A stretch of 40,768 nucleotides of DNA from Cladosporium halotolerans (taxonomy: Eukaryota). The translations under genes and the position numbers were made by a program. Every line of letters begins with the position of its first letter. Position 1 is the first letter of the stretch. The stretch covers positions 1 through 40,768 of the forward strand of contig NW_027191520.1 in the NCBI RefSeq assembly GCF_011745625.1, read 5' to 3'. Below, in pieces: positions 1,797 to 10,305 of the stretch. Under the pieces are notes generated by a model, which was given only the letters and a program-made list of their open reading frames with translations, did no database searches and was not told where the DNA came from.

Positions 1797-2710
1797 GTCG
1801 AAAGATGTGTACCCTGTCCAGACGTGCCAGCGTGACGAAAAGCATTTGCGAGGGTGCGCAACTCGAACAGATACTTCCATTGAACCTGTAAAGTATTGCT
1901 TATCACGGTACCGCGATGTCATTCGGTTCGGCTGGAACGCGTAGAGCTCCTCGTGGAGAGAGCTCCGTCATCGCGTCAGCATCCTCTGCAATCATGACGT
2001 CGAAGAGCGACCGTTCGGTTCACAAAAGAGAGGCCTCAGTATTCTGTATATTAGCTGGGTTCGTCTGTTTACCAGTCTCAGCTAGTAAGCCTTTTCAGCA
2101 CAACTCAGACCGACCGTGAGTGATCTCATATACCAGAAACAAGTGCTTCGACGGTCGTCCACAGAAGGACCAGTGATGTATTTAGCCAAGTTGAAAAGAG
2201 TTTCGGAAAGGCATGAGCTGAGTCCTAGCCGAGGAACCGAACAATCCCACAGGGGAACACGCTGCGTTACGATGGTATTTCATTTTATTGCCGTCTTCAC
2301 GGATTCCTCGTGAAACACTTCCGGCACTGGTTCGATGGCACAAGATAGCGAACAAGGCAATGCTTCAAAGCCGCCTTTGGATGCATGTTTGAACTTGACG
2401 TCTGTTTCAAGAATTCTTCAGAATCCCAGCTCCACGTCGTGGACTAAGGTTAAAGAATGAAAAGACGATACCTTATGCTTATCATGACCACTCCTAGACC
2501 CATGAAAGTAGGCCCGTGCTCTGCCAGCGTGAAGGCCCAGCTGCCAGGCTGCTGGTGCGCCAGTGACGTCAGAAACGGTCGCGCGTCTGATCGTCGTCCC
2601 GACTCCCACGACCACCGGCCACGCGTAGGAGCCTCACGTATCCCCTGTGTACACGCGACAGCAAGCTCGTTCCATTGGGTTACCATGGATTCGTAGGAGC
2701 CATCACGGCC

Positions 2711-5292
2711 ATGGCACAGAAAAGAGCTCTCCAGCGCCTGAGCGCGCTCTCCGCCCACCTCACTGGGACGCGGGGTGTGAATGCCGCCGTTGTCAAGAAG
2801 CGATGGAACTCTGGCGAGGCCGGCGAGAACAAGACCGGCCACATCCAGACAAATAATCTGCAAAGCGTCCTGTTTTTCAACAATCTTCTGCCGGTCAACT
2901 TGCAATGGCTCTTTCGAATCCCGTGGACCCTTGAGAAGACCTTCCCAAAGGTCCTGGACCGTAACGAAACAAGCTCCATCTCTGCCGTCAACCCCGTCAA
3001 AGTCCTCGAGGAAGCGGCAAAGGCCAAGAATATTCCCGAAATCAAGGTTCTGGAAGTGCTGCCTCGTCTCAAGGAAGGTGGCGCTTTTGTCAAATTCTCG
3101 CACAACGAATCTACGACGTCTGACGCTGTCTCCGAAGCTGTGAGGGAATATCTGAAAGAGAACAAGGTCCGCCCTTGGTGGGACCCTCTTGCGCGCGTAA
3201 AAGCTAAGCTAGTGCTTGGGAAGCCATGGGTTGAGGATCTGTTCCGTCTGCCTTCACCACGCTTAAAAGTCGAATTTCTCCCTTCTCAGCCTGGTGCCGA
3301 AGCTGCGGAACTCAGTCAGGAACAGCTCTACTCTTTCTTCAGGCCCTACGGAAAGCTTCTCGATATCATCGCTCAGCCGTCAGACTCCAAGGTTCTACCT
3401 CGTTATGCCTACTTGGACTTCGCGCAAAAGCGCAAGGCGATTATGGCGAAGAACTGCATGCACGGCTACACAGTTGGCGAGGCGCAAGGCGGCGGTAAGC
3501 TTGGGACCATTTTCCGTCTGACTTACGAGAAGAAAGCTCGCTTTGGATGGATCAAGGACTGGATTTTCGGCCACCCGAGACTTGTCATTCCTGCTCTCGC
3601 TGCTCTTGTCGCCGGTATTACCGTCTCTGTCTTTGATCCTCTCCGTACCGTTGCCATCAAAGCTCACATCACCCGTGCATTCCACGTCGAGGATAATGTG
3701 GTCTTCCGCTGGTTCAAGTCACAAGGCGAAGACCTGATCAGCAAGGTCAAAGCACTTCAAAAGCATGACGACCCTGGCGACGCGGGAATGCAGGTCGTGT
3801 GGGACGATCGCAAGCCTCAAATCGAACAGATTCAGGCGTGGCTCATGGAGACTGCGGACACCTTCATTGTCGTACAAGGCCCTCGAGGCGCTGGTAAGAA
3901 AGAGCTAGTCCTTGATCATGCGCTCAAACACAAGCGCGAAGCGCACAAAGTGCTCACGCTCGATTGCAAGCCCATACAGGAGGCCAGAGGAGATTCTGCA
4001 ACCATTAATGCTGCTGCCGGACAAGTCGGATACTGGCCGGTTTTCTCCTGGATGAACAGCATCAGTGGTCTGATTGACTTGGCTGCTCAGGGTGCAGCTG
4101 GCGTAAAGACTGGATTCTCAGAGACCCTCGAAAACCAATTGGGCAAGATTTGGAACAACACTGCCTCGGCTCTGAAGACCATAGCGCTTGACGGGCGCTC
4201 CAAGAAAGACAAAGATGCTAAGCTGGGCGACGATGAGTACCTGGAAGTACATCCCGAGCGACGCCCGATCGTTGTCATCGAGAACTTTTTGCACAAGAGC
4301 AATGAACCGGGAGCCGCGCTTGTGTACGACAAGATTGCTGAGTGGGCAGCCCGTTTGACCACCAGCAACATCGCACATGTCATTTTCCTCACAACCGATG
4401 TCTCCTACAGCAAATCGCTTGGGAAGGCACTCCCCGATCGCGTCTTCCGACAGATCTCGCTCGGCGATTGCTCCCCAGAAGTGGCCAAACGCTATGTGAT
4501 GAACCACATCGACTTTGTCGATACCGATGAAGAGGACAGTTGCAAAGATGAAGAAGGCGCAAAGAAGCTACCACCAAGCCAAAAGCGTAGTGATTTGCAA
4601 GAGCTGGACAATGTCATTGGTCAACTTGGTGGCCGCCTGACGGAGCTGTGAGTATCTTGATCCTGAAAGTCCATCACCTCATGTATTGACCAACTCGCAG
4701 CGAATACCTGGCCCGACGCCTCCACGCAGGAGAAACGCCCACTGCCGCCGTAAAAGCAATGATTGAGCAATCAGCGTCGGAGATCCAGAAAATACACATT
4801 GCCGCCGCCAGCGAAGAACGGCAATGGACCTCTCAGCAAGCGTGGCAGCTGATCCGCAACCTCGCCAAATCCGATGCGCTGCGCTACAACGAAGTCCTCC
4901 TGACCGACGCCTTCTCATCAGGCGGCGAAAAGGCCCTCACAGCGCTCGAGCAAGCCGAGCTCATCAGCATTCAGTCGCAGAACGGCCGACCGTACAGCAT
5001 CAAGCCCGGCCGCCCGATCTACGGCCCTGCATTCCAGGAAATGGTCAAGGACCGCGTGCTCGCCGCCAAGATGGATCTGTCGCTGCTGAGCATGCAGATT
5101 GGGGCAGAGAACAAGAGTATCGACAAGTACGAGCAAGAGCTCAAGTTGCTGGGTGGCTTACCGAGTCAGGCTGGCGAGCTGAAGTCAAGGATTTACTGGC
5201 TGCTTGGCAAGATCCAAGGGAGCCAGACTAAGGTTGAGGGGTACGAGAAGGAGGCTGGCGACATGAAGAAAGTCCTGCAGACGGAATTCTAG
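2711..5292 (+). CDS. YME2: Mitochondrial escape protein 2 (Yme2/Rna12), ~842 aa; exons 2711-4647, 4701-5292
   Basis: Basic presequence-like N-terminus, PRLKEGGAFVKF, GKPWVEDL, an RRM (LYSFFRPYGKL...YAYLDF), a TM segment, and the P-loop VVQGPRGAGKKEL. Intron 4648-4700 (GTGAGT...TTGAC...CAG) restores GGRLTELEYLARR. Confidence 0.93.
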
Positions 5293-5608
5293 GCATGCCG
5301 GGTCAGCAACAATGTGTACAAGAGCGCACTGTAAGGTGAGCCGGAGACAGTGTGCGCCCCTACGCTGAGCCATGCAATCGATGGTTTGGACTCTTCACTC
5401 CATCTTTTAACATCTGAGAAGGAAACTCAGTTCCATCCACATCGCCAGAAAGCGTTGTCTTAGTGTTCAATAATACCAAATTAAAAATGTCATTCGCACC
5501 AGACAATCAGCAGGCTCCCCACCAGGTATCAGTCCACAGCCAGCTTCACCACACGCCACGAACATCTTTCCACCACTCTCGATCAAAAAGTTAACACCTA
5601 CCTACCCG

Positions 5609-6285
5609 TCAGTCCCCAGACTCCTCCGCCGACAACACCGTTTCTGAACCCAATCCCGTGAGCGCCGCCGCACCAGCAATCGACGCTCCAATAATCACCC
5701 ACCCCGACCTTGCAACCTGCCTATTCGTAATGCCCCATGCAGACTTCCAAGCCAAAAACCTCAGCGCATTAAATCCATGAAACGCAAAAACCCAGCTAAT
5801 GACAAACTTCACCGGCATCTTGACCCAAGGTGACATCCCGCCAACAGCCGCGGCAACCGAAGTCGCAGAAACCTCGAAGCCCAGGGAAGGCGACGTAAGG
5901 TAAACCATTGGAAACAAATAGAGAGTTCCACTGAGCGCTAGGCCCGTGAGGCGCTCGAGAACCGAGAGGACGGAGGTCATTTGCGGACGGTAGATGCTTA
6001 GATGAGGGGTGAGTGGACGACGGAGACGTTGGGCGGCGAGAAGGGATGGTGCTGAGTTTGGGTTGGTTCGTGGGCTGCGGGCTGTGTGAAGTGCCGCTGG
6101 TCTCGGTGGGGTGCGTTGGAAGGCTACTCGGGGAGCGATGAGGGAGGATGGCGTTGCCTGTTTCAGGCAGAGGGTTGAGAGGCGGTGGGCAGGCGCTGCT
6201 GTTTTGTCAACTGTGAATGAAGGTATTGGAGGGATGAGGTGCCCTGGGAAAGACACCGACCTGCGCGTGACGGGAGAAACGGCAT
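5609..6285 (-). CDS. SDH3: Succinate dehydrogenase cytochrome b560 subunit (SdhC/Sdh3)-like, divergent paralog, ~204 aa; exons 6285-6261, 6198-5609
   Basis: QRLRRPLTPHLSIYRPQ...R.TG and FH..N.LR motifs plus three TM helices. ATG 6285 (MPFLPSRA) joins the main frame via intron 6260-6199 (GTCGGT...TTGAC...ACAG). Arg/Ser/Ala-rich presequence. Confidence 0.85.
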
Positions 6286-7167
6286 GGCGAATGGAATATG
6301 CGCCTCAAAAGGTCGAGGCAGTCGATAGGTGCTAGTATCGACGGCGGTCGCGAGACTGTCAATAGGGGCTCCAAGATGAATGCTAACAATCTGGAATTAG
6401 CTGTCCTATGCCCTTTCATACTAGCAGCATCTTGACCAGCAACACGTATCTCCGACGGTAACCTCGCCCTGCGTTCCGCGAATCGCGTCGCTTGGGAATT
6501 AACACTGGACGCGACCAATCAAACGAGATGCTTTGTTCTGTCTGCCGTCTCGAATGTTGCAAGCGAGCTAGACGCAGGCATGGACAATCCTTCTCGCGAA
6601 GTGAGACCGGAGATACGCGGAGTAAGCGGACGGCGCAAGGGAGTGTTGTAGCAAGAACGTAGGCGCCGCCTTGCCATATGAACATGTTCCTACTCCTGTC
6701 CATTTCATTATGGTTGGCCATCACGCGTCAGCAATGTTGGGAGAAAGTACCACATCTTTTATCGAGTCTGCTGGCATGCCGCATGATTTGTGACGAGCGC
6801 ATTTCACGTGATGGCTGTGTGGAATACCGATTCGATGAACACAATGCTGGCCATCTTGCATCCGATCGTTATTCGTATATACTTTGTTCAAGATGGTCGT
6901 TCGATCATTATGTCCCTGGTTTCGTCAATGGCAAATTCAGGTATACGTTAAACAAGCAGGTGGAGAGGTATGTAGGTACAAAGTCAAGCTTGGGGGCCAC
7001 AGTTAGAGTTAGAGTAGGTGGACCCTGTGTTAGCGACCCACCACGCGCCGCTCGACCCGCACCGGCGCCATCCAAAAGTGGAAACCTCTCAACTATCGAC
7101 ATGTGAGCCCGCCCGCCGCCCGCCCACCTGCGCACCCACACACGCCCTCTGGCACTCGTCCAGTACT

Positions 7168-10100
7168 ATGGACGAGGTCGAGAACCCAGCTTTGCCGGCT
7201 GCAGACGAGTCGAGCCCGACCATCCCTCCTATCGCCGACGACACTCAGCCAGATGTTCCCCTGGTCACCGCCGAAGATGGGGAAGCAGCCCCCGCCGCAC
7301 CCAAGGACGCAGACGGCCCGCCGCCCAAACCTCCTCGGCCTCCTCTGAAGCGCGACAGCAGCTCTGGCTCAGCAATCCCGCCTCAGCAGCTCCCGCCCGC
7401 GCCTCCAGCTGCAACGAGCGAAGAGCTGGCTCAAGACACGCCTGACTCGCTCACTCTCGCCGATCTGAAGAGGATCCGCAGCGCGTTTCCTAACACCACG
7501 ACACCACTAGAGCGCGAGCAGTTACTAGACTACCGCCGGGTCTACGATTTCGAATATCAAGACGCCCAGTCGTTTCCCGTGGAGCTGGAGGAATGGTTCA
7601 GCTACAGCGAAGAAGAGGATCTGAAGCTGCGGCGTTGCAAGACCGTGTTCAACGAACAATGGCGGTCCACAGAAGAAGGAACTCAGGATTGGTTGGATGT
7701 CACCGAGGATGCAAGGCGGAATTACGTGCAAGTGCAGATTGAAGCGCTGCGCGAAGGAGAAGAGGAAGCGGTGACCGCTGCTTTACAGAACTTGACCTAC
7801 ATTGGGTTGGGTGTGTGGGAAGAGACTGCTGGTAGGCAAGAAGGCTCCCCGCTCGAGACCCTGTTTCCGCACAGCATTGAGGGTGGTGCCAGGCTTGAGG
7901 ATTATGCTTCTTCGAGCCTGCAGCTCCAATGGATCGTGAGCATGGTGGATACAATAAGGTCTTGCGGTGGCCTCAGCGCTATCTATGAGACGCTGAGGAA
8001 GATTTGCGACGACGACTTTCAAGCAGCATCGCCTGAGCTATCTGCCAGGGGTGAGAATCAAAGTCGACGAGCGGATGAGAGCATGGAGCTTTGGTGCTGT
8101 CTCACGCTCGTGTATCTGTTTGTGGAGGTCGCACGAACAGCGGACGGTTCGAGCGGGCAGACTATGAAGAGCGAGATCCTTGCTCTGGAGCCGAACTTCC
8201 TCAACTACCTTACTCAGATCGTAGCTCGACTGCGCTGGGATGAGACGGCTCCGATTCCGCTGACCAAGATGCTGCTGTTGGCTTGGAAGACAATTTTGGT
8301 CTCACTTGGTGGGATCAAGGACATCGAGCACATCAAGGAGTCGCTCAGAGAGGACAAAGATGAGATGGACGCTCGGGGCCAGCCGATTATCACAGCTTCT
8401 CCACTTGACTACCATCTCTTCCGCCAAGAGATCAACTCCAAATACCCAGCGTACCAACCTCCCGAGCCGCTCTTCCCACTGGAGCCTGAGAACAACAGCA
8501 TTCTACCACCACTAAAACACCGTCGGCCAAGTGCGGTATCTGATGCTTCGTTCGCCAGCGCACCGTCTGCCGGAAATGGCTCGATCATGCATCAGCCAGT
8601 GCACATCGCCACCCCTGCGCCTTCGCCGCCTCCGTCGCCCGGAGGACCCGGTAAAGCTGGTAAGAAGCAAAACTATCAGACAAATCAGATGTTTCCCTTC
8701 TTGTATCCGCCCTTGGATGAGAACAGCAACGAGCTTGGCGGCAAAGGTAGTACTGAGCTGCAAGACGCGCTGGTCGGCAGGAGATGGGAAGGAACAGATA
8801 TCCCAACGAGCATCCTTGAGGCCGCTGAGTTGTTTGCCAAGCGGATGCGCGCAACGCGAGGTATGAAGCAACTGTGGGAGACAAGAGTCGACTACATGAA
8901 GTACGAACGCGGATGGAAAGGCAGCGCGGATCTCGACAACAACGACGTGGACGACTTCGAGCTGGTGCCCAAGCCAGCGGAAGAGGAGACTGCCGAGCAA
9001 GGCGAGCCGGTTCCGCAGACGGAGGAAGAGCGAAAACTTGCCGCCGTCAACGATTACTACCGCGATTCGCTGCCTTATTTGCAGAGCGTCGTGATTGTGC
9101 TGCTGAAGGCAGTGCTGCAGAACGTGACCGACCTCGTCACGAAAGGCAACGGTCAGAACGGGCTGCAGGCTGGGTTCCAGTTCAACGAGCCCAATGGCAT
9201 TAATGGCTCGGTGAAGCCGGTCGAAAACGGCAACGGACACATCGAGCACGGCGAAAGCACGGCCGAGGAAATCGACAAGCTTCGCTCGCAAGAAATAGCT
9301 GCCAAGGCCCTGAGCTCAATCCTTCTGCTCCTGCTAAAATGGTTCAAGCTGAACCACATCCTGCAGTACGAGTACATGACGCAGCTTTTGCTGGACTCAA
9401 ACTATGTCCCGCTGATCTTGAAGTTGTGGCAAACGCACGAGATTGGTCGTGCGTGCCACTTCCCGCTCGAGCGAGAGGAGTCAAATTTCTTCTACTTCTG
9501 CCAGTCGACGTCTCGCCAAGGCGCTCCTCAACCACGCCACGACTCTACGGCTCAGGCGGAAGAAGACGACTCGGAAGACGACGCAGTCCCGCCTCCGATC
9601 AAAATGAAGCGCGACGACCCCGACGCCGCTGTCACCTCGCCGCCCGAGCCGGAATACAGCCAGCAGCAGCAGCCGCCGCCGGAGATCGACGAGCTGGGCT
9701 ACCCCCAGACTCCTCTGCCACCAGACCCCATCACCACCTACTCGTGGCGCAATGTTTTCACCTCCATCAACTACCTGCGGGTGCTGCAGAAAATCACCCG
9801 ACGCAAAACACACCGCTCCCTTCTCCTCGTCAGCTACAAATCCAGCCTGCACCTCAAAAAGACCCTCAAGATCCCCATCGCCCCGCTGCGGTACTACACG
9901 CTGAAGCTCTTCAAATCTCAAGTGCCCTTCTGCGGCCGCAAGTGGCGACAAGGCAACATGAAGATCATCACGGCGGTGTGGCTGTCGGTGCCGGCGGAAC
10001 TGCGCGACGACTGGCTGTCGGGCGGCGGTGGCGGGATGGGCGGCGGGTGGGTTGGAGATGTGGACGGGAGTGTGGAAGATGCGCTGCCGCTGGAGCAGAG

Positions 10101-10305
10101 CCTGCGGGCGCTGACGCATTGGTGGAACGTCAGGAATTTCAGGGAGGTGATGGGCGTTGAGGAGGGGATGTTGAAGGAGGGCGAGGAGGGGTTTTTTGAG
10201 AGGGAGTTGGAGAAGTTGGAGATTGCTAGGGGTGTGATGGGTGGTGGGGAGGAGGAGGGTGGGGAGGGAGAGGGGGAGTGGCATGGGCCTGTTGAGGGAT
10301 ATTGA
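7168..10305 (+). CDS. FAR11: STRIPAK component Far11/HAM-2/PRO22 (STRIP1/2 family; N1221 + DUF3402 domains), ~1045 aa
   Basis: Motifs ELEEWFSY, ITASPLDYHLFRQEINSKYP, KKQNYQTNQMFPFLYPP, LLKWFKLNHILQYEYMTQLLLDSNY, YTLKLFKSQVPFCGRKWRQGNMKIITA. First in-frame ATG is at 7168. Confidence 0.93.
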   Translation: MDEVENPALPAADESSPTIPPIADDTQPDVPLVTAEDGEAAPAAPKDADGPPPKPPRPPLKRDSSSGSAIPPQQLPPAPPAATSEELAQDTPDSLTLADLKRIRSAFPNTTTPLEREQLLDYRRVYDFEYQDAQSFPVELEEWFSYSEEEDLKLRRCKTVFNEQWRSTEEGTQDWLDVTEDARRNYVQVQIEALREGEEEAVTAALQNLTYIGLGVWEETAGRQEGSPLETLFPHSIEGGARLEDYASSSLQLQWIVSMVDTIRSCGGLSAIYETLRKICDDDFQAASPELSARGENQSRRADESMELWCCLTLVYLFVEVARTADGSSGQTMKSEILALEPNFLNYLTQIVARLRWDETAPIPLTKMLLLAWKTILVSLGGIKDIEHIKESLREDKDEMDARGQPIITASPLDYHLFRQEINSKYPAYQPPEPLFPLEPENNSILPPLKHRRPSAVSDASFASAPSAGNGSIMHQPVHIATPAPSPPPSPGGPGKAGKKQNYQTNQMFPFLYPPLDENSNELGGKGSTELQDALVGRRWEGTDIPTSILEAAELFAKRMRATRGMKQLWETRVDYMKYERGWKGSADLDNNDVDDFELVPKPAEEETAEQGEPVPQTEEERKLAAVNDYYRDSLPYLQSVVIVLLKAVLQNVTDLVTKGNGQNGLQAGFQFNEPNGINGSVKPVENGNGHIEHGESTAEEIDKLRSQEIAAKALSSILLLLLKWFKLNHILQYEYMTQLLLDSNYVPLILKLWQTHEIGRACHFPLEREESNFFYFCQSTSRQGAPQPRHDSTAQAEEDDSEDDAVPPPIKMKRDDPDAAVTSPPEPEYSQQQQPPPEIDELGYPQTPLPPDPITTYSWRNVFTSINYLRVLQKITRRKTHRSLLLVSYKSSLHLKKTLKIPIAPLRYYTLKLFKSQVPFCGRKWRQGNMKIITAVWLSVPAELRDDWLSGGGGGMGGGWVGDVDGSVEDALPLEQSLRALTHWWNVRNFREVMGVEEGMLKEGEEGFFERELEKLEIARGVMGGGEEEGGEGEGEWHGPVEGY

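What the first reader, a model, noticed from the sequence alone, without database searches (positions are those of the whole stretch)
5609..6285. Divergent SdhC paralog with a remodelled quinone site: candidate natural SDHI-fungicide-resistance subunit or neofunctionalised Sdh3
Seen: the Qp-site helix reads PQMTSVLSVLERLTG (~5942-5986), helix 2 reads FHGFNALRFLAWK (~5744-5782), and there is an acidic C-terminal extension (GSETVLSAEESGD). Established (consensus and numbering recalled from Zymoseptoria tritici SdhC): the canonical subunit reads PQITWYLSALNRVTG and FHSLNGVRHLVWD, and W80S, A84V/I, N86 and H152 substitutions are SDHI-resistance changes. A dispensable SdhC paralog also gives standing resistance to fluopyram-type SDHIs in that species. 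This copy carries W80S-, A84V-, N86E- and H152F-equivalents plus WD>WK together, yet keeps Ser83, Arg87, Gly90 and the heme-ligand His. Inference: it is an alternative complex II anchor with altered inhibitor or quinone binding, or a copy specialised for Sdh3's second role in the TIM22 translocase.
Basis: partly seen in the sequence, partly recalled or inferred. Interest (0 to 1): 0.7.

Follow-up and report, generated by a model that had tools for sequence, protein, structure and literature searches.

The report
Second succinate dehydrogenase anchor in Cladosporium
This mould carries a second, spliced copy of a respiratory-chain membrane subunit whose fungicide-binding pocket is altered; such spare copies are known in other fungi, and this one belongs to an old lineage shared across Cladosporium, so it may give natural fungicide tolerance but did not arise from fungicide use.

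Summary
The gene is a 204-aa SdhC (named C. halotolerans WHR41_09174), and the genome has a separate canonical SdhC at 44% identity. Its intron is spliced in run X20. Numbering maps as claimed.

It belongs to a clade of 22 proteins; flanking genes place the fetched relatives in Cladosporium. Ser80, Val84 and Phe152 are fixed in 22 of 22, Glu86 in 1 of 22, and the acidic tail is private. Relatives show dN/dS 0.07-0.22, like the canonical gene, so the pocket predates SDHI fungicides.

Two changes (W80S, A84V) fall on inhibitor-contact positions and match listed resistance changes; N86E and H152F do not. This copy has moved locus, has a leader with 12 upstream ATGs, and one allele differs by 11 replacement versus 6 silent changes, so it may be decaying. 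TIM22 specialisation is unlikely.

Best reading: an old, weakly expressed alternative complex II anchor with probable SDHI tolerance, untested. A new variant of a known kind.

The parts
6261..6285 (-). Exon 1 (start codon, 8 codons plus one base)
   Evidence: matches P0002 N-terminus
6199..6260 (-). Intron, 62 nt, GT..AG
   Evidence: joint 6198/6261 in run X20; the contig of RNA run X1 ends at 6198; ends checked
5609..6198 (-). Exon 2: rest of presequence, SdhC domain, tail, stop
6044..6285 (-). Likely mitochondrial presequence region (aa 1-60, intron included in the span): 7 Arg, 1 Lys, no acidic residue, 11 Pro
   Evidence: targeting is inferred from composition, no predictor was run
5942..5986 (-). 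Qp-site helix I (aa 80-94): Ser84 (W80), Ser87 (S83), Val88 (A84), Glu90 (N86), Arg91 (R87), Gly94 (G90)
5744..5782 (-). Helix II (aa 148-160): His149 (heme-ligand position), Arg155, Phe156 (H152), Lys160 (D156)
5612..5650 (-). Acidic C-terminal tail, private to this species cluster
6286..6914 (-). Long transcribed leader in run X20, with 12 ATGs upstream of the start codon
   Evidence: contigs cannot show start sites, so shorter transcripts may exist
6696..6750 (-). Leader intron, 55 nt, GT..AG
   Evidence: joint in X20; ends
2591..5292 (+). Neighbour: RNA12/RRM (YME2-like) gene, convergent; not part of the element
   Evidence: the name YME2 is recalled from the RNA12 family
7168..10305 (+). 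Neighbour: N1221/DUF3402 (Far11/STRIP-like) gene, divergent; may share a promoter
   Evidence: X20 contig starts at 7170; the name Far11 is recalled

Best explanation
An old second SdhC lineage of Cladosporium that serves as an alternative membrane anchor of complex II. Shown: a spliced gene, an SdhC fold, intact Ser83, Arg87, Gly90 and heme-position His, and purifying selection in relatives. Inferred: the protein is imported by its basic presequence, pairs with the single SdhD and with SdhA/B in competition with the canonical SdhC, and still reduces ubiquinone through the kept Ser/Arg pair. Loss of the Trp80 wall and a larger residue at 84 should weaken binding of SDHI-type inhibitors, above all the fluopyram type. 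It is probably a minor isoform (GC3 0.6 against 0.9), kept for tolerance to natural Qp inhibitors or for metabolic tuning, long before synthetic SDHIs. In C. halotolerans the copy has moved to a new locus and may be under weaker constraint.
For: Two PF01127 genes and one SdhD in the genome. Splicing in X20; a 662-nt contig of RNA run X1 covers 5537-6198. Model with pLDDT 93 from a 113-row alignment; the rows shown for ranks 1-16 are all SdhC chains. Clade of 22 rows, SH-aLRT 98; 95/97 in a 61-row tree; 89 with both pocket motifs removed. Ser83, Arg87, Gly90, His145, Arg151 and Trp155 are kept in 22 of 22. dN/dS 0.07-0.22 in 16 of 16 within-subclade pairs, against 0.04-0.23 in 44 informative canonical pairs. 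Yeast Sdh3 residues at the bixafen site are Leu81, Trp90, Ser93, Ser94, Arg97 and Ile98; this protein changes the Trp90 and Ser94 positions and keeps Leu81, Ser93 and Arg97, with Leu for Ile98 (PMC13066397). A84I/V gives fluopyram resistance, and alt-SDHC works by competing for the complex (PMC6941823). Phe at the H152 position occurs in the working Ascaris enzyme (3vr8_C).
Against: No protein, assembly or inhibitor data exist for any clade member. Against function of this copy: allele X1 differs by 11 replacement and 6 silent changes (pN/pS 0.67), not different from neutral and above omega 0.15 (p 0.002; core 6 of 8, p 0.011); this is one allele and small counts. P0284 differs at 12 residues. 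The X20 leader has 12 upstream ATGs. Position 84 varies widely even among near-canonical fungal SdhC (Ala 44, Ser 29, Ile 17, Gly 9, Met 8, Leu 1 of 108). Query-versus-relative dN/dS (0.15-0.32) rests on near-saturated dS of 1.1-2.1.
Confidence: 0.58

Rival explanations
1. The lineage works in other Cladosporium species, but the C. halotolerans copy is a relocated gene that is decaying. It is transcribed divergently from the neighbouring promoter, barely translated, and drifting.
For: No synteny with relatives' loci; loss of the usual amidohydrolase neighbour; private tail; longest branch in the clade (0.48-0.57); 11:6 replacement-to-silent ratio, including changes at aa 82-83 in the Qp helix; 12 upstream ATGs, and a leader that reaches to within about 260 nt of the divergent transcript.
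Against: The frame is intact, and the X1 allele's 17 changes include no stop; all six key conserved residues are kept; a diverged haplotype in run X3 (142 differences in 1055 nt) keeps the region beside the same neighbour; polymorphism usually overstates dN/dS (general knowledge).
Confidence: 0.25
2. A condition-specific isoform for another quinone or for reverse (fumarate reductase) flux under low oxygen, as in parasitic nematodes.
For: The best sequence match among solved structures is the Ascaris rhodoquinol-fumarate reductase subunit, which shares Phe at H152; PMC6941823 raises metabolic adaptation as a role of paralogs.
Against: The E-value gap to yeast Sdh3 is small (4.5e-18 against 7e-16) and Ascaris keeps Trp80; by fold, yeast Sdh3 ranks first. 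No rhodoquinone pathway was searched for.
Confidence: 0.07
3. A copy specialised for the TIM22 carrier translocase.
For: Yeast Sdh3 is a TIM22 subunit (6lo8_C matches); PMC6941823 mentions this second role.
Against: The yeast role runs through an Sdh3-Tim18 module, and Tim18 is a Saccharomycotina-only duplicate of Sdh4. This genome has one CybS gene; two other hits at E about 0.2 were under the cut-off. The quinone-site Ser and Arg are invariant in the clade. The paper notes that expansions of TIM22 in other fungi are unknown, so this is not excluded.
Confidence: 0.04
4. A self-resistance gene of a cluster that makes a complex II inhibitor (atpenin or harzianopyridone type).
For: Such clusters, with succinate dehydrogenase as the target, are listed in PMC10320164. 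In 5 of 9 relatives' loci the gene lies tail to tail with an amidohydrolase gene, followed in L011 and L013 by a transcription factor.
Against: The 16 window frames scanned (4, the paralog among them, and 12) gave housekeeping families or nothing, and no PKS or NRPS; nor did 13 frames from relatives' loci. The amidohydrolase looks secreted (my reading) and is absent from this genome (best 26%).
Confidence: 0.04
5. A recent adaptation selected by agricultural SDHI fungicides.
For: W80S and A84V match listed resistance changes.
Against: The states are fixed in 22 of 22 clade members, across loci whose synonymous divergence reaches 1-2.6, far older than these fungicides.
Confidence: 0.02

Closest known systems
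Zymoseptoria tritici ZtSDHC3 (alt-SDHC)
   Same: Second SdhC beside a canonical gene, with a larger residue at position 84 (Ile78 there, Val88 here); PMC6941823 sections 8 and 10.
   Different: alt-SDHC is 54% identical to SDHC, differs at one Qp residue, is species-specific and is proven functional. This copy is 44% identical in the core, also loses Trp80 and His152, spans several Cladosporium lineages and is untested. Its sequence was not retrieved, so orthology was not tested.
Zymoseptoria tritici ZtSDHC2 (SMR59342 = P0085)
   Same: Older, divergent Dothideomycete paralog that has lost Trp80; weak or no expression.
   Different: Keeps Asn86, His152 and Asp156; groups with canonical Capnodiales SdhC, not with this clade, in three trees, although sisterhood was not rejected (p-AU 0.20).
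Fusarium SdhC1/SdhC2 pair
   Same: Two SdhC genes at about 42% similarity that set intrinsic SDHI sensitivity (PMC13144763 abstract and section 2.1).
   Different: Both Fusarium copies are functional and mutually redundant; described as a Fusarium-lineage split. No named Fusarium sequence was in my trees.
Unstudied second SdhC genes of Phlyctema, Coleophoma, Hymenoscyphus, Coccidioides, Aspergillus terreus and Cercospora
   Same: Most share the Ser80 helix state, and all group loosely with this clade (support 85-91, unstarred).
   Different: 38-52% identity; the grouping may be an ancient paralog lineage or long-branch attraction.
Yeast Sdh3 in TIM22 (6lo8)
   Same: Same fold.
   Different: Needs Tim18, which is absent outside Saccharomycotina; one CybS gene here.

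Membership tests
SdhC / cytochrome b560 (PF01127, TIGR02970) | Profile match over the curated cut-off | tested here: met
   76.8 bits against 25.8; 66.2 against 52.3
SdhC / cytochrome b560 (PF01127, TIGR02970) | Three long helices in the SdhC fold | tested here: met
   pLDDT 93, TM 0.65-0.76 to SdhC chains; the alignment held mostly canonical relatives, which favours this result
SdhC / cytochrome b560 (PF01127, TIGR02970) | Quinone-site Ser and Arg, heme-position His | tested here: met
   Ser87, Arg91, His149; 22 of 22 in the clade
Resistance-conferring dispensable SdhC paralog (ZtSDHC3 type) | Coexists with a canonical SdhC | tested here: met
Resistance-conferring dispensable SdhC paralog (ZtSDHC3 type) | Transcribed and spliced | tested here: met
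   joint 6198/6261 in 1 of 4 runs laid (X20); X1 contig ends at the exon edge. Level unknown.
Resistance-conferring dispensable SdhC paralog (ZtSDHC3 type) | Val or Ile at the A84 position | tested here: met
   Val88
Resistance-conferring dispensable SdhC paralog (ZtSDHC3 type) | Assembles into active complex II and shifts SDHI sensitivity | not testable with these tools
   needs biochemistry
ZtSDHC2 ortholog group | Monophyly with ZtSDHC2 | tested here: inconclusive
   not joined in free trees; forced clade not rejected, p-AU 0.196
TIM22 Sdh3-Tim18 module | A Tim18 partner (second Sdh4-family gene) | tested here: not met
   one CybS gene, three exon hits on C1; the assembly may be incomplete
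Self-resistance gene of a biosynthetic cluster | Backbone enzyme (PKS/NRPS) nearby | tested here: not met
   none in the 16 window frames scanned; frames under 220 aa beyond 13 kb were not scanned, and the contig ends at the window's edges

The most novel reading that the evidence does not exclude
Cladosporium species carry, largely unannotated, a genus-wide second complex II anchor whose pocket already holds both W80S- and A84V-type states. It would form a natural SDHI-tolerant isoenzyme, evolved against microbial complex II inhibitors and held down by a leader rich in upstream ATGs, and would be a standing reservoir of SDHI tolerance in a very common leaf and air fungus.
Probability: 0.25. 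Interest if true: 0.62.

Novelty: new variant of a known kind. Interest (0 to 1): 0.36.

Why it matters
Target-gene paralogs are an under-monitored source of intrinsic fungicide tolerance: PMC6941823 shows this for one species and says the biological role of fungal SdhC paralogs is not known. This lineage offers a natural test of that question, because the altered pocket is old, fixed and under purifying selection in many Cladosporium lineages, while one species may be losing it. If functional, SDHI sensitivity surveys and resistance genotyping in Cladosporium should include the second gene. If silent, it is an ordinary decaying duplicate. Searches for Cladosporium with SdhC and SDHI terms and for SdhC paralogs listed no paper on it, and the species table of PMC6941823 has no Cladosporium. 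The library lacks most subscription papers.

Tried and rejected
The first structure model, from a 17-row alignment, was poor (pTM 0.31; no Foldseek match under E 0.001) and was replaced by a deeper one.

Origin of the clade: AU tests rejected neither a duplication inside Cladosporium (p 0.176) nor sisterhood with ZtSDHC2 (p 0.196). 137 columns cannot settle it, and the bootstrap had not fully converged.

The acidic tail as a functional feature was rejected: it is absent from the other clade members aligned, and L010/L012 have an unrelated extension.

Bacterial origin was rejected: the clade sits among fungal sequences and has spliceosomal introns.

A link to the amidohydrolase in distant fungi was tried through locus tags: none of the named hits belonged to the species that hold the distant paralogs, so nothing was shown.

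Expression level could not be ranked: all four runs are contigs, the kind of X20 is not on record (I infer RNA from three spliced GT..AG joints), and X20 may be the source strain (no differences). X4 covers only up to 5817. Only 40 of 341 differences were shown, so counts for X3 are incomplete and were not tested.

Cross-subclade dN/dS pairs (20) were set aside as saturated. 31 of 280 rows were left out of the large tree as too short.

No complex prediction was sent: the spliced SdhD was not available as one unaltered sequence, and an SdhC-SdhD pair would pass by likeness to solved structures.

Earlier scan findings: three look-ups returned nothing. PMC10421077 passages held nothing relevant.

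Full report
Observation. The window holds a minus-strand gene with a start codon at 6285, a 62-nt GT..AG intron at 6260-6199 and a stop at 5611-5609. The spliced frame is 204 aa and equals protein P0002, which its source labels Cladosporium halotolerans WHR41_09174. It matches PF01127 and TIGR02970 over their cut-offs. The three motifs lie at the stated coordinates. N86E and H152F are not in that list. Z. tritici SDHC1 itself was not retrieved.

A true paralog. Searches of the own genome with the protein and with PF01127 each gave 2 of 2 candidates: this gene and G000:C196:139061-139450 at 44% identity. The second has Trp80, Ala84, Asn86, His152 and Asp156 and groups with canonical SdhC of C. 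fusiforme and other Capnodiales. There is one SdhD-family gene.

Expression. Four runs were laid. A contig of X20 skips the intron exactly and also skips a second minus-strand intron at 6696-6750 and an intron of the neighbouring gene, so I infer that it is RNA. It has no differences from the window and may be the source strain. A contig of RNA run X1 covers 5537-6198 at 97% identity and stops at the exon edge. Contigs give no level and no start site. The X20 transcript reaches 6914, and this leader holds 12 ATGs before the real start. GC3 is 0.60 in the core against 0.91 for the canonical gene, and 0.58-0.68 against 0.78-0.90 in relatives, which suggests low expression (inference).

The family. 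The protein falls in a clade of 22 rows with SH-aLRT 98 in a tree of 249 of 280 rows, 95/97 in a 61-row tree and 89 when both pocket motifs are dropped. No other member carries a species name. A metagenome scan kept 80 of 555 confirmed loci; 9 of the 80 carry the clade motifs (L010-L018). Their hosts are very probably Cladosporium. Flanks of L011 and L014 match own-genome contig C153 at 70-82% DNA identity and in order. The neighbouring amidohydrolase of L011 is 88% identical to a C. inversicolor protein and 69% to a C. fusiforme protein. Six of the nine loci share an assembly with six Cladosporium-type canonical SdhC loci. No paralog from those two annotated species surfaced in my searches, so it is lost or unannotated there.

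The pocket. In the clade, Ser80, Val84 and Phe152 are fixed in 22 of 22, as are Ser83, Arg87, Gly90, His145, Arg151 and Trp155. Glu86 occurs in 1 of 22 (Gln 14, Met 7) and Lys156 in 15 of 22. Among 108 near-canonical filamentous sequences Trp80 is kept in 107 and His152 in 105, so the clade is truly unusual for fungi. Position 84 is variable there, though never Val. More widely, Ser80 occurs in 46 of 144 distant representatives, and Ser80 with Val/Ile/Leu84 in 34 of 252 rows outside the clade. Phe152 occurs in the Ascaris enzyme. These states are therefore compatible with working enzymes elsewhere. In yeast complex II with bixafen, the Sdh3 residues at the site are Leu81, Trp90, Ser93, Ser94, Arg97 and Ile98 (PMC13066397, passages). 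The paralog changes the Trp90 and Ser94 positions and keeps Leu81, Ser93 and Arg97, with Leu for Ile98. The N86 and H152 positions are not named as contacts in those passages. PMC12508127 (passages) shows that yeast complex II works without heme, so the kept His proves little. A model from a 113-row alignment has pLDDT 93 and matches SdhC chains. The acidic tail is private to this species cluster.

Selection. In 16 of 16 within-subclade pairs of relatives, dN/dS is 0.07-0.22 at dS 0.17-0.97. For canonical genes, 44 informative pairs of 45 give 0.04-0.23. The lineage is thus constrained, and dS of 1-2.6 between subclades makes it far older than synthetic SDHIs. The window's own copy looks weaker. 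The X1 allele has 11 replacement and 6 silent changes (pN/pS 0.67), which is compatible with neutrality and above omega 0.15 (p 0.002). Two of these changes lie in the Qp helix. This is one allele with small counts, and polymorphism tends to overstate dN/dS.

Locus history. No window frame other than the gene matched any of the 80 loci. In 5 of 9 relatives' loci the gene lies tail to tail with an Amidohydro_2 gene; L015 lacks it, and L010, L012 and L017 end too early to tell. This genome lacks that amidohydrolase (best match 26%) and shows no remnant of the pair at the matching C153 junctions. The copy has therefore moved and now sits among housekeeping genes.

Origin. P0085 is ZtSDHC2. It groups with canonical Capnodiales genes, while this clade groups loosely with second SdhC genes of Leotiomycetes, Eurotiomycetes and Cercospora. 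AU tests rejected neither a Cladosporium-only duplication (p 0.176) nor sisterhood with ZtSDHC2 (p 0.196), so the origin is open.

Mechanism. By analogy with ZtSDHC3 (PMC6941823: abstract, sections 8, 10 and 20, S4 Table and the text of S2 Fig seen), the protein most likely competes with the canonical subunit for the single SdhD and gives a minor complex II form with weaker binding of SDHI-type inhibitors (0.58). Import, assembly, activity and tolerance are all inferred. The main rival is that this copy is decaying (0.25). TIM22 specialisation is unlikely (0.04), because the yeast role depends on Tim18, which arose within Saccharomycotina (PMC7523481, passages). A self-resistance role (PMC10320164, passages) has no cluster to go with it.

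Comparison and verdict. Second SdhC genes are known: 17 of the 80 species in the S4 Table have two or three, and the Fusarium pair sets intrinsic SDHI sensitivity (PMC13144763, abstract and section 2.1). I found no paper on the Cladosporium lineage (search listings only). It is a new variant of a known kind: real, old, genus-level and testable, but without functional proof. Interest 0.36.

Noticed in passing
window 6286-6914 (-): The transcript in run X20 has a leader of about 570 nt after splicing, with its own intron (6696-6750) and 12 upstream ATGs; it reaches to within about 260 nt of the divergent N1221/DUF3402 transcript.
   Followed up: partly
window 5292-5609: One X20 contig runs through the gap between the convergent RNA12-family gene and the paralog, and an X4 contig runs from the neighbour to 5817; overlapping 3' ends or read-through are possible.
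   Followed up: no
L011:8700-9713 (-), L014:1185-2144 (-): Cladosporium Amidohydro_2 protein, distantly like 2-pyrone-4,6-dicarboxylate and 4-sulfomuconolactone hydrolases, with a signal-peptide-like start; absent from this genome.
   Followed up: partly
G000:C153:191965-323343: Genes that flank the paralog directly in L011 lie about 131 kb apart in this genome, in the same orientation: a rearrangement at the place where the paralog and the amidohydrolase are missing.
   Followed up: partly
window 5976-5978: The X1 allele and an X3 haplotype differ in the codons for aa 82-83; the second is the position of a listed Z. tritici resistance change (T79).
   Followed up: no
P0017, P0019, P0027, P0182, P0212 and relatives: A separate, fully supported clade of 17 rows of second SdhC genes in Aspergillus and Penicillium, mostly with Ile at position 84 and Trp80 kept; these could be cluster self-resistance genes, not checked.
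   Followed up: no
window 11100-40768: The rest of the contig holds housekeeping families: ATP synthase beta-type, Trs120, tuberin, RNase HII, Es2 and a JmjC protein; four frames of 233-302 aa and one of 252 aa had no Pfam match.
   Followed up: no
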